This document shows, in pieces, positions 21,171 through 36,215 of a DNA stretch of 64,000 bases. Positions within the stretch are counted from its first letter, which is position 1. The number at the start of each line of letters is the position of its first letter. The notes beneath the pieces are model-generated. The model was given only the letters and a program-made list of their open reading frames with translations. It had not been told where the DNA came from and ran no database searches. The translations under genes and the position numbers were made by a program. Location of the stretch: positions 37,882,001 to 37,946,000 of the forward strand of contig NW_027266267.1 of NCBI RefSeq assembly GCF_022045235.1, written 5' to 3'. Origin of the DNA: Haliotis cracherodii (Eukaryota).

Positions 21171-24100
21171 ATGGTACCTCTCAGGCAAATTTCTGAATGG
21201 ACGCTACTTCTTCTGATGATGATTCATGAATCTGTCGGTATGTTATTTCGGTGGTATGTCCATACTCATTGTTGTGTACTGTTTCAGCTCATGTATTATG
21301 TATGTGTTATATCCATACATTAAATCATATACTGATTCATAGATCAACTGGCCAGTGGCATCGTAGCTTATCAGTATATCAATGAACTCTAATTTATTAT
21401 GTTACATAATTACAATTAGTACAACTAATAATGAACCTACACATCTTTATGAAGATCATATTTACGCCAAAAGGTTCGCCGGAACTGATCTGTCCGGATG
21501 TCGGTTATCTTGGTTCTCCTGCTCATCTAACGTGCATCCCACCGAGTAATATAACTTCACATGGCTATGTGTCATCGCAAGGTGAAGTTGCCGTCATCTG
21601 CAATGTATCAAGCTCATCATGTACAACAATGGGCAACTACATGGCATCTACCATCAACCAGACACACAGTAGCCTCACCATACCTGCAGTACAGCAAGCA
21701 CATGCTGGGCAGTGGACATGTACTATCCTACCTTGGTCTCAACTATCCTGCAACATTGCTGTTGTGAGTAAGTACCCCAAGATAAGATACATGATTGTGA
21801 AGCCAACACTCGCAACTATCACTCCCATCACTCAGTGTGGATGTAGGCTGTTCAACAATGGCGGACACTATTCCGTAACATGTTACTGGTACATGTTGAG
21901 ATAGCAAAATGAATGTTATTCACATGGGCGTATTGCAAGGGAATCTGCATTGTGCTATCAACATAATAAGTGTTAACAACAGCAATTTAGGTTGTACTTA
22001 GACACACGTGAACTAGTACAGAAAGAACAGTTATATTTTCCAAGCCATTGTGACATATACAAGTTTGACGTATCAGGAACCAGCAATATGTTTGAAGCGA
22101 TTCCCTCTTTTCACAGTGTTTGTACAGGAGAACAATTGCCGTGCCTTTGTATGTATTTGTGACGGGTGTTACCGGGGAGGACACCCTTACATTTTCGCGA
22201 ACACCTGGCATCCTTGCTATGTGATACTGCTTCGTATACACAAGCTTATGATATAGTCGGAACCGTGCAATAGACAAGCTTTAAGGTTTCTTATGATCAT
22301 GGAAAGGAATTTGCCAACTTGCCTCAACATCATATTGTCATGCCATAAATGAAGGAGTGCTATCAAGTTGGGACATAGTTGACAAGATGTCATATATACT
22401 TTATACTGAGAATTTTATTGTACTTGATATGTTTGTGCTTATGATATATATATTGAAACTATTCTTGTCAATGATGAAAGGAAAACATCTCACGTTGAAG
22501 TCCTTTCGGCTGAATGTCGTATCTAACTTGTAAAGACTACCTGTAATGCGACTTTGTGTTTCAGAACTCCCGACCTGCTTCATAACAAGCGATGTAAACA
22601 TCACGACGCTCGACGTTGGCGAGGAGCTGTCCCTGGCAGTACACATCCAGGGGTATTACTGTTCTGAGCTGGTTCAGCTGAACGTATCCACAGGAAGAAC
22701 TGATCATGAATACCCCAGTGAAACAGTCACTGATATAACAGATAAAACAGTTAACATCAAAATCAACAAGACCAACTCCAACTTCGAGGCGGAACTGGTC
22801 TTCACCTGCGGTGGCCATAGCACGACTCAACCTTGTAATGTAACCAACGGTGAGTACAAGGGGAAAGAGGCAGTACTAGTATTCATATGTTTAAAGCATA
22901 TTTCTCAACATAAACAACGCATGGAAAGAGTTCAGTCTCAAGTACAGTGACTTTAATGTTTGAAAAAACTTATGAATTAAAACTACGTGTGCACACTGTG
23001 TAAATCTGGGTTGTGGAGTATGCCAAGCGTTTCCCTTTATGTAAGTATTAACGTGAATACCGAGGTGCACATGTGACAACGCACGTTACCTGTTATTGTT
23101 AGTTTGGGTAACGCAAACGATAGCCAAATTAAATGCCAGGAACCACTTGTTTCTTCAAAGTTAACATAATAAACGAAATTTATATTTCTTTATTCATTCA
23201 ATGACATTCAATGGTAAATAAATTGACTTCTCTTCAGCAAGAAAGTATGATCAATGGCAGGTCTTAGTGAAGCATGTTCATTTGCAGATTTGTGATAATA
23301 ACTGAAACACAATTGCATGATCTATGAATACCTGCATTAAAAGAGTCAATTGTAATGGCGCTCATCGGGTCCACAGAGCACCACATCTCAACAGAAAAGG
23401 CTACTGATACATCAGCGACAAGTTGCATCTTAATGGGTATTGACATACGTTGTATATATACCATTTATTTACAGGGACGCCGTCAAGCACACCTGACCAA
23501 AATATAACACCAGGGCCGCCAAACGCCATGGTCATCATTGGAGTAGCTGTCACCGTCGTCATCACCATCATCATCATCGTCACCTATGTCTGCTTCAAAA
23601 GGAGGACCATACAGCAGAAGGTACCACCAGTGTTGGAATGCCCCGACCCGCCGTACATGGAGTTTAAGGAACCCCTTCATAACACGTACGTCAGCGTGGA
23701 GGACCTTGGTGCACAGGGGTCGGGATCCAAGAAGGACACTTCACCACCTTGTACAGAAGCGTATGCAGACACAGGGAACTATGCAGCCGTTAGCGACACC
23801 AGTGCCCTTGACACTAAAACAAGGAAAGATGACCTGCCTGCATTAATGGACGCGGGGGGATATTCATTTGTTGCTGACAGACGTGTTCCGGACAAAGGCA
23901 AACCGGTAGATGACACAGCTAAATCTTTAGACACGGACTACTATAAAACTGTTGAGGATCAAAATGCTGCAGTACCTAGTGTAATGCAAGGAGACCTACC
24001 TCTCCCACTTGACGCTGCAGGATATTTAACTGTCGCTTACAGACAAGCTGCAGAAACTAGCCCACAGAGAGAAGACACAGCTAACCCTTTAGACACGGGC

Positions 24101-25024
24101 TACTATGAAATAGTTGAGGACCAAAGTGCAGCAGCACTTAGTGTAATGCAAGGAGACCTACCTCTCCCACTTGACGCTGCAGGATATTTAACTGTCGCTT
24201 ACAGACAAGCAGCAGAAACTAGCCCACATAGAGAAGACACAGCTAACCCTTTAGACACAGGCTACTATGATATAGTTGAGGACCAAAGTGCAGCAGCACT
24301 TAGTGTAATGCAAGGAGACCTACCTGTCCCATTTGATGCTGCAGGATATTTAACTGTCGCTTACAGACAAGCTGCAGAAACTAGCCCACAGAGAGAAGAC
24401 ACAGCTAACCCTTTAGACACGGGCTACTATGAAATAGTTGAGGACCAAAGTGCAGCAGCACTTAGTGTAATGCAGGGAGACCTACCTGTCCCATTTGACG
24501 CTGCAGGATATTTAACTGTCGCTTACAGACAAGCTGAAGAAACTAGCCCACAGAGAGAAGACACAGCTAACCCTTTAGACACGGGCTACTATGAAATAGT
24601 TGAGGACCAAAGTGCAGCAGCACTTAGTGTTATGCAAGGAGACCTAACTCTCCCAACTGATGCTGCAGGATATTCAACTGTTCCTGTCAGACATGCTGCG
24701 GACAAAGGCAAACAGGGAGATGACACAGCTAAACCTTTCGACACAGGACTCTATGTTGATGTCGAAAGTGATGCAGAACCTAGTCTCCGACAAGGAGACC
24801 TACCTGCCCTAACTGCTGCTGTGGGATATTCAACAGTTGACAATTTCAAACCATGCCCCGGTGCCGCGTCATTCAGTCACACGGGGAAGCCTGAAAGTGT
24901 CCCGAATCAGATAGAAGGACAGAAAACCAACAGACCTCTCTTTGAACTTTATGCAACTGTTAACAAGAAGAGGGGCACACCTAGGTTGGCCAGTGCTGAT
25001 GCAACTACCACCCCTGTTATGTGA
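21171..25024 (+). CDS. Receptor A3: same architecture, long Tyr-repeat tail (~731 aa)
   Basis: Exons 21171-21237, 21474-21767, 22565-22849, 23475-25024; first three exon lengths (67/294/285 nt) and splice sites as in A2; open frame. Confidence 0.85.
23825..24790 (+). repeat. Coding 162-bp (54-aa) tandem repeat in the A3 tail
   Basis: Four DAAGYLTV...DTGYY(E/D)IV units plus diverged flanking units. Confidence 0.9.
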
Positions 25025-36000: not shown

Positions 36001-36215
36001 TAACTGCTGCTGTGGTGTATTCAACAGTTGACGATTTCAAACCATGCCCCGGTGCCGCGTCATTCGGTAACACGGGGAAGCCTGAAAGTGTCCCGAATCA
36101 GATAGAAGGACAGAAAACCAACAGACCTCTCTATGAACTTTATGCAACTGTTGACAAAAAGAGGGGCACACCCAGGTTGACCAGTGCTGATGTAACTACC
36201 ACCAGTCTAATGTGA
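33025..36215 (+). CDS. Receptor A4: ectodomain like A3, short Tyr tail (~510 aa)
   Basis: Exons 33025-33091, 33328-33621, 34419-34703, 35329-36215; GT-AG phase-1 introns; open frame. Confidence 0.85.

What the first reader, a model, noticed from the sequence alone, without database searches (positions are those of the whole stretch)
21171..36215. A3 appears chimeric: A4 ectodomain joined to an A2-type tail, so one ligand-binding region has two signalling outputs
Seen: A3 and A4 signal, Ig and domain-2 exons translate identically and their upstream ~8 kb is near-identical. The start of the A3 last exon is A1/A4-like (VIIGVAVTVVITII, AYADTGNYAAV). From about DTDYYKTV onward, and in the 3' flank, it is A2-like (6 units, DNFKP, TTTPVM; lacks the ~1380-1450 segment shared by A1 and A4). 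Inference: unequal crossover inside the last exon swaps tails between ectodomains, as in paired receptors.
Basis: partly seen in the sequence, partly recalled or inferred. Interest (0 to 1): 0.7.

Follow-up and report, generated by a model that had tools for sequence, protein, structure and literature searches.

The report
Abalone Ig receptors swap signalling tails
In a black abalone gene array, two neighbouring receptor genes encode an identical outer Ig-fold part but tails with 16 versus 7 tyrosine motifs of one type, likely made by repeated recombination and predicted to differ in signal strength rather than sign, and across four abalone species the outermost domain of this family stays most alike within each species, as in vertebrate paired immune receptors.

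Summary
The mosaic is real in the sequence. A3 and A4 share all three ectodomain exons without a difference and differ at 5 substitutions in about 8.15 kb. A3 switches from A4-like to A2-like at 23,888-23,893 (informative sites 371:9 before, 17:143 after; 0 of 10,000 permutations). One crossover does not explain it: A3's three parts diverge by 0.06%, 5.2% and 2.6%, so at least two events of different age are needed. 'Two outputs as in paired receptors' does not hold for this pair: both tails are uncharged-TM, YxxV arrays at 27-residue spacing with no ITAM; they differ in motif number (16 vs 7). The genes belong to an unnamed Haliotis family with a predicted V-type Ig domain plus a second Ig-like domain. 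At family level the paired-receptor pattern does show: domain 1 groups by species (15 of 15 nearest neighbours) across YxxV, ITAM-like and tyrosine-poor tails, while domain 2 follows gene type. Public reads neither confirmed nor refuted the A3 junction; a false tandem join remains possible (about 0.12).

The parts
100..845 (+). A1 last exon (TM and short tail, 5 YxxV); rest of gene left of the window
   Evidence: translation lies unchanged in RefSeq P0007
9568..13371 (+). A2 gene, 742 aa; exons 9,568-9,634, 9,871-10,164, 10,945-11,229, 11,789-13,371; 16 YxxV sites
   Evidence: GT-AG introns, open frame; RefSeq P0002 is the same less 162 aa
12271..15246 (+). A2 repeat tail and 3' flank, the closest match to A3's tail and flank (77 differences in 2,969 nt)
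15250..23405 (.). Tract near-identical to 26,951-35,259 (5 substitutions): upstream region and ectodomain exons of A3
15399..16049 (+). 50-nt minisatellite at the left edge of the tract; a unit matches the Ig exon at 48 of 50 nt
21171..21237 (+). A3 signal-peptide exon
21474..21767 (+). A3 domain 1 exon, predicted V-type Ig fold
   Evidence: (Pfam Ig_3 E 3.8e-4, below cut-off)
22565..22849 (+). A3 domain 2 exon, predicted Ig-like beta sandwich
   Evidence: a joint 22,848-23,474 with GT..AG ends in run X19
23475..25024 (+). A3 last exon: stalk, TM, tail with 16 YxxV sites; whole protein 731 aa
   Evidence: RefSeq P0001 is the same less 162 aa
23406..23888 (+). A3 juxtamembrane segment: A4-like but about 5% diverged
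23888..23893 (.). Switch from A4-like to A2-like ancestry
23930..24739 (+). Five 162-nt (54-aa) tail units, two YxxV sites each, matching A2's
25025..26950 (.). A3 3' flank, A2-like (46 differences in 1,874 nt)
26951..35259 (.). Second copy of the near-identical tract (A4 upstream region and ectodomain exons; minisatellite at 27,100-27,900)
33025..36215 (+). A4 gene, 510 aa; exons 33,025-33,091, 33,328-33,621, 34,419-34,703, 35,329-36,215; 7 YxxV sites
   Evidence: identical to RefSeq XP_071095931.1 of Haliotis cracherodii (P0005)

Best explanation
A3 is a patchwork member of a tandem array of single-pass Ig-fold receptor genes, with A4's ectodomain and an A2-like tail, likely built by at least two recombination events and predicted to turn the same ligand contact into a stronger signal of the same kind than A4. 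Shown: the three ancestry segments, the identical ectodomain exons, the motif counts. Inferred history: an older exchange inside the last exon (near 23,890) put the long tail and its flank behind an A4-type juxtamembrane part; a much later unequal crossover or long conversion, bounded by the microsatellite/minisatellite near 15,250 and by intron 3, made the upstream 8 kb match A4. Inferred function: the disordered tail is a row of YxxV sites 27 residues apart that, once phosphorylated, would dock tandem-SH2 proteins of the SHP type; 16 sites against 7 would change gain or threshold, probably of an inhibitory signal. Ligand, expression of A3 and immune role are untested.
For: Breakpoint statistics and three divergence levels. 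Five substitutions in 8,153 nt against 127 expected at the species' published heterozygosity of 1.56% (PMC9709981, passages); with the white abalone mutation rate (10.1101/2024.09.16.613283, abstract) that is about 36,000 generations (95% 12,000-83,000) against about 1.5 million for tail and flank. The array shows other exchanges: A1's flank switches from A4-like to A2-like at 1,564-1,595 (0 of 10,000 permutations); A1 and A2 share domain 1 at 97% with 5 and 16 YxxV sites. Open frame and GT-AG introns. Model of A4: two confident beta-sandwich domains, TM helix, disordered tail; domain 1 aligns with V-type domains of CRTAM and CD8 alpha at Z 12.8, rmsd 2.0 A over 94 residues, both domains with nectin-3 D1D2 at Z 12.1, rmsd 3.8 A over 183. 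PD-1 and BTLA carry ITIM and ITSM 25 residues apart for bivalent SHP binding (PMC8631942, passages); here the spacing is 27.
Against: No listed read or contig spans the 23,890 junction, and contigs of three runs showed non-A3 letters only at 23,498 and 23,516 (40 of 77 difference rows and 24 of 1,602 pieces were shown; contigs drop rare variants). Most YxxV sites lack the hydrophobic -2 residue of a strict ITIM (1 strict match each in A3 and A4). RefSeq models of A2 and A3 omit three of five units, at boundaries that are not GT-AG here, so the long tail may not be the common or expressed form. The order and type of events cannot be fixed from one haplotype. No functional data.
Confidence: 0.6

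Rival explanations
1. A3 is real but is neutral turnover of a tandem array: tail length drifts as a coding VNTR and the two tails signal alike.
For: Unit number varies freely among paralogs and species: 5 to 16 YxxV sites in the window, 4 in the H. asinina gene P0020, 9-10 in H. rufescens P0003/P0017. Both tails keep the same first and last motifs. Repeats lie at or near both breakpoints.
Against: The 27-residue spacing and YxxV are kept in every added unit; A3 gains four ITSM-consensus matches that A4 lacks. Family-wide homogenisation is confined to domain 1 in the acidic-tail genes, which suggests selection on ligand binding.
Confidence: 0.2
2. Assembly artefact: A3 and A4 are alleles from two haplotypes joined in tandem, or A3 is a false join.
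For: Tail and flank of A3 differ from A2 by 2.5-2.6%, near the allelic level of 1.56%. Other individuals' contigs show non-A3 letters at several diagnostic sites. No depth or spanning-read test could be run.
Against: The two 8-kb copies are about 25 times closer than average alleles yet carry five substitutions, so they are neither typical haplotypes nor one sequence pasted twice. There is no long exact match at the 23,890 switch (longest runs 83 nt with A2, 68 nt with A4) and none over 154 nt between the A2 and A3 tails and flanks, which leaves little overlap for a long-read mis-join. No N gap lies in 1-39,386. Run X2 shows A3's own letter at 23,144. A mis-join inside the tail or flank would leave the A3 chimera real as an allele.
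Confidence: 0.12
3. One reading: one crossover in the last exon made a true pair, A3 and A4, with opposite or qualitatively different outputs.
For: Identical ectodomains; sharp switch inside the last exon; four TxYxxI matches only in the long tail.
Against: Three divergence levels need more than one event. No ITAM in either tail, no charged TM residue, same terminal motifs.
Confidence: 0.08

Closest known systems
Vertebrate paired receptors with homogenised ligand-binding domains (Siglec-5/14, Siglec-11/16, PILR, PIR, KLRC; 'merohomogenization')
   Same: Linked genes, near-identical V-type ectodomain, different tails, gene conversion (PMC13358205, passages; PMC3210942, abstract). In the Haliotis family domain 1 groups by species across tail types.
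   Different: A3/A4 tails are of one motif class and differ in number; no charged TM residue for a DAP12-type adaptor; no sequence homology was found beyond the Ig fold (10-18% identity in fold matches).
Hydractinia Alr gene family
   Same: Clustered invertebrate single-pass proteins with an unusual V-set domain 1, exon shuffling, ITAM or ITIM tails (10.1101/2022.03.04.482883, passages).
   Different: Alr proteins have V-set, I-set and Fn3-like parts; here two domains and a coding tandem repeat of YxxV. No allorecognition role is shown; homology to Alr was not tested directly.
Botryllus fester co-receptors (FcoR)
   Same: IgSF cluster with copy-number variation, YxxV core motifs in pairs 29-33 residues apart, alleles and splice forms that swap ITIM and hemITAM (PMC12582321, passages).
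   Different: FcoR act with a separate FF partner and swap motifs by allele or splicing; here whole tails move between paralogs and motifs multiply by a 54-aa repeat.
Biomphalaria GRC and PTC2 clusters
   Same: Gastropod clusters of hyperdiverse single-pass genes with gene-sized indels between haplotypes (PMC7494358, passages).
   Different: That paper has no mention of tyrosine motifs or gene conversion in its main text; those clusters have a mapped resistance phenotype, this one has none.
RefSeq 'uncharacterized' Haliotis proteins (XP_071095931.1, XP_071095308-311.1 and relatives)
   Same: These are the same genes or close paralogs.
   Different: No family name, no Pfam call; models of A2 and A3 lack three tail units.

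Membership tests
Immunoglobulin superfamily, V-type domain 1 | Ig beta-sandwich with B-strand Cys and F-strand G-x-W/Y-x-C | tested here: met
   Model pLDDT above 90 over most of domain 1; Z 12.8, rmsd 2.0 A to CRTAM and CD8 alpha; C43, G101, W103, C105 conserved. Pfam matches stay below cut-off.
Immunoglobulin superfamily, domain 2 | Second Ig-like sandwich of a defined set (C1, C2, I) or Fn3 | tested here: inconclusive
   Two-domain matches to nectin-3, VCAM-1, butyrophilin; domain 2 was not folded and searched alone; no Pfam Ig match.
Paired receptors (A3/A4 as the pair) | Closely linked genes with near-identical ligand-binding domains | tested here: met
   0 differences in three exons, 11.85 kb apart; cis linkage rests on the assembly.
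Paired receptors (A3/A4 as the pair) | One partner activating: ITAM in the tail or charged TM residue | tested here: not met
   No ITAM in A1-A4; no K, R, D or E in the TM core.
Paired receptors (A3/A4 as the pair) | One partner inhibitory: ITIM or ITSM in a long tail | tested here: met
   Sequence level only: one strict ITIM in each, four ITSM matches in A3.
Paired receptors (family level) | Post-speciation homogenisation limited to the ligand-binding domain | tested here: met
   Domain 1 nearest neighbour is same-species in 15 of 15; acidic-tail ortholog clade rejected for domain 1 (p-AU 7e-9), 100/100 for domain 2. Rests on RefSeq models.
Paired receptors (family level) | Activating partner sharing the domain | tested here: inconclusive
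   P0010 (domain 1 87% to A3) has YxxL-x10-YxxM, ITAM-like but not strict; strict ITAMs occur in 7 of 74 TM-bearing hits, the two measured being 43% to A3 in domain 1.
Paired receptors (either level) | Shared ligand and opposite signalling shown by assay; co-expression | not testable with these tools
   No ligand or cell data.
Hydractinia Alr family | V-set + I-set + Fn3-like ectodomain and sequence homology to Alr | not tested
   No Alr sequence was compared; 20 of 20 hits looked up were Haliotis.

The most novel reading that the evidence does not exclude
Abalone have their own paired-receptor system: a large Haliotis-restricted Ig receptor cluster in which gene conversion keeps the V-type binding domain in step across inhibitory YxxV-array, ITAM-like and tyrosine-poor tails in each species, while tail swapping and a 54-aa coding repeat tune signal gain; A3/A4 is a recent snapshot of that process and a candidate locus for disease resistance in black abalone.
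Probability: 0.3. Interest if true: 0.75.

Novelty: new variant of a known kind. Interest (0 to 1): 0.5.

Why it matters
Homogenisation of the binding domain across opposing tails is described for vertebrate leukocyte receptors, and tyrosine-motif IgSF clusters are known in a cnidarian and a tunicate. Nine literature searches (open-access library, listings only) showed no description of this family or this pattern in a mollusc. If the family signals as its motifs suggest, it gives a testable case of convergent paired-receptor evolution and of gain control by motif copy number, in a species that lost most of its numbers to a bacterial disease. The A3 chimera alone is ordinary array recombination.

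Tried and rejected
No whole genome is held for this window, so the rest of the cluster and a second haplotype could not be read. Run search: 21 runs listed, no RNA holder listed; this says nothing on expression. Four of the 21 runs were laid on 19,100-24,090: three as short contigs, one as raw reads with 56 laid, 54 of them only partly, so no depth test; no verdict on the junction. Pfam gave no match at cut-off for the ectodomain exons; EutQ on the tail (E 1.9e-4, no passing stretch) is taken as repeat noise. A single crossover was rejected. RefSeq's 486-nt omissions as true introns: none of 18 (A3) and 13 (A2) possible placements has GT-AG, GC-AG or AT-AC ends. dN/dS A2 vs A3 is 0.57 in domain 1 and 0.35 in domain 2, no sign of positive selection from this pair. 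For domain 2 the ITAM-like orthologs were neither recovered nor rejected as a clade (p-AU 0.39). The outlier gene list of PMC13229213 (section 9 and Dataset S1 read) has uncharacterized LOC ids that I could not map to these proteins; no link to disease selection is claimed. Earlier scan notes: none by place or sequence. Low-scoring hits such as P0070, P0080, P0093, P0099, P0101 look like generic multi-Ig proteins and were not counted as family. No complex was predicted, as no binding partner is claimed.

Full report
What is in the window. Bases 1-37,700 hold a tandem array with a period of about 11.7-11.9 kb. Each unit has a four-exon gene: signal, domain 1, domain 2, and a last exon with stalk, TM and tail. 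A2, A3 and A4 splice by GT-AG into open frames of 742, 731 and 510 aa; only the last exon of A1 is in view. A4 is identical to RefSeq XP_071095931.1 of Haliotis cracherodii, and A1-A3 match neighbouring models, so the species is black abalone. No whole genome is held.

A3 and A4 have no difference in three ectodomain exons and five substitutions plus four repeat-length differences over about 8.15 kb, 15,250-23,405. On 540 informative sites A3 is A4-like up to 23,888 (371:9) and A2-like from 23,893 (17:143); 0 of 10,000 permutations reach the observed chi-square of 421. Left out of that count were 37 sites where A3 matches neither, columns within three of a gap, tail units 2-5 and two intergenic repeat stretches.

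One crossover is too few. A3 differs from A4 by 0.06% over the upstream tract, from A4 by 5.2% (27 of 524) over the start of the last exon, and from A2 by 2.6% (77 of 2,969) over tail and flank. A single exchange between two haplotypes should give similar, allelic, values. Published heterozygosity for the species is 1.56% (PMC9709981, passages), which would give about 127 differences where five are seen. With 8.6e-9 per site per generation from white abalone (10.1101/2024.09.16.613283, abstract) the tract dates to roughly 36,000 generations (12,000-83,000) and the tail to about 1.5 million; these are rough, as conversion distorts such clocks. I infer an older tail exchange near 23,890 and a recent crossover or long conversion ending in intron 3. 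The array does this often: A1's flank switches ancestry at 1,564-1,595, and A1 and A2 share domain 1 at 97% with short and long tails.

Is it an artefact? Not settled. Four of 21 listed runs were laid on 19,100-24,090. No shown piece spans the junction (24 of 1,602 shown). Contigs of X1, X2 and X19 carried non-A3 letters only at 23,498 and 23,516, and X1 and X2 at 22,937 and 22,945; X2 carried A3's letter at 23,144. Contigs drop rare variants, so A3 may be rare, absent in those animals, or collapsed. X19 (RNA by guess) shows a GT..AG joint for intron 3 of an A-type gene with non-A3 letters. The raw-read run gave almost no coverage. From sequence alone a mis-join is unlikely: the copies are distinguishable, there is no gap in the array, and no long exact overlap at the switch or between the two long tails. 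I leave 0.12.

What the proteins are. The A4 model, from a 47-row alignment, has two confident beta-sandwich domains, a TM helix and a disordered tail. Domain 1 matches V-type Ig domains at Z about 12.8 and rmsd 2.0 A; both domains align with nectin-3 D1D2 at Z 12.1, rmsd 3.8 A over 183 residues; Foldseek ranks butyrophilins, DIPs and Fabs. These are fold matches at 10-18% identity and name no function. Tails carry YxxV every 27 residues: 5 sites in A1, 16 in A2, 16 in A3, 7 in A4. Strict ITIMs number 1, 2, 1, 1; TxYxxI (ITSM consensus) 0, 4, 4, 0; ITAMs none. The TM core has no charged residue. PD-1 and BTLA use a 25-residue spacing for bivalent SHP binding (PMC8631942, passages). I therefore read A3 against A4 as more against fewer docking sites of one kind, most likely inhibitory. 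This step is inference. RefSeq drops three units from A2 and A3 at non-canonical boundaries, which may reflect shorter alleles in the evidence it used; I could not check.

The wider family is where the paired-receptor idea gains ground. A profile search found 108 proteins; 20 of 20 looked up were Haliotis, nearly all 'uncharacterized', and 8 of the 9 from H. cracherodii list the same longest-contig length as the A genes. Of 119 proteins with an ectodomain hit, 74 have a TM segment and 7 of those a strict YxxL-x10-YxxL/I (spacing 10 fits the 6-12 definition in PMC13358205, not the 6-9 one in the Alr paper). Among 15 close relatives from four species (two more distant rows as outgroup; P0006 with partial domain 1 and isoform P0017 left out), the nearest domain 1 is always from the same species, and in 10 of 15 it sits on a different tail type, while the nearest domain 2 has the same tail type in 13 of 15. 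The tyrosine-poor acidic-tail gene of black abalone is 89% to A3 in domain 1 but 79% to its red abalone ortholog; in domain 2 the values are 40% and 96%. The H. asinina pair is 90% and 35%, the H. rubra pair 85% and 34%. A clade of the four acidic-tail orthologs is rejected for domain 1 (p-AU 7e-9) and has 100/100 support for domain 2. P0010, with an ITAM-like YxxL-x10-YxxM tail, is 87% to A3 in domain 1. In the black and red abalone pairs the signal peptide also follows gene type, which argues for conversion of the middle exon and against chimeric models.

Comparison with what is known. This matches the homogenisation limited to ligand-binding domains described for KLRC, KLRI, KLRB, Ly49 and PIR (PMC3210942, abstract) and Siglec pairs (PMC13358205, passages). 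Invertebrate parallels are Hydractinia Alr (passages), Botryllus FcoR (passages) and, as gastropod clusters, GRC/PTC2 (passages). An ITAM-bearing Ig receptor is reported in oyster (PMC11999971, passages), and Ig-domain enrichment on a structurally variable abalone chromosome in PMC12627906 (passages); whether that region holds this cluster I could not tell, and its supplements were not read. A3/A4 fails the defining test of opposite signalling motifs, so it is not filed as a paired receptor; it works like a gain variant inside a family that evolves like one.

Verdict. Observation confirmed; interpretation partly supported. Best reading 0.6, neutral turnover 0.2, artefact 0.12, true opposite pair 0.08. 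New variant of a known kind; interest 0.5, owed mostly to the family-level pattern.

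Noticed in passing
window 2,980-5,803; 15,399-16,049; 27,100-27,900: The 50-nt minisatellite upstream of A2, A3 and A4 matches 47-48 of 50 nt of the domain 1 exon (21,647-21,696), so it looks like an amplified piece of the receptor's own Ig exon; it sits at the left edge of the homogenised tract.
   Followed up: partly
window 555-2,390: A1's 3' flank is itself mosaic, A4-like to about 1,564 and A2-like from about 1,595.
   Followed up: yes
P0010, P0011, P0013-P0016, P0020, P0021 (not in window): Domain 1 is homogenised within each of four Haliotis species across YxxV, ITAM-like and tyrosine-poor tails.
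   Followed up: yes
window 45,862-49,980: A more distant family gene: one domain 1 and three tandem domain 2 exons matching RefSeq P0019 at 92-100%, but P0019's last domain 2 and TM exon match the window at only 74-87%, so the model or the gene is another patchwork.
   Followed up: partly
window 54,426-56,448: A third family gene type (domain 1, domain 2, TM exon); RefSeq P0018 joins three such domain pairs (about 90% alike) to a tail with a strict ITAM and a TM region like the gene at 49,736-50,104.
   Followed up: partly
P0008, P0009: Ectodomains of the distant type (72-77% to window 46,247-46,528) carry A-type YxxV repeat tails, an older tail swap.
   Followed up: no
window 12,266-12,763 and 24,172-24,674: RefSeq models P0002 and P0001 skip exactly three 162-nt units at non-canonical boundaries, a hint of shorter VNTR alleles or of annotation error.
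   Followed up: partly
window 20,949-21,019 and copies near 9,346 and 32,803: A short hydrophobic reading frame ending at a phase-1 GT donor lies 150 nt before the signal exon; possibly a 5' UTR exon or an alternative leader.
   Followed up: no
window 8,059-8,634 and 60,121-61,065: A 145-nt tandem repeat expanded only in the A2 unit, and a C-rich 58-nt minisatellite.
   Followed up: no
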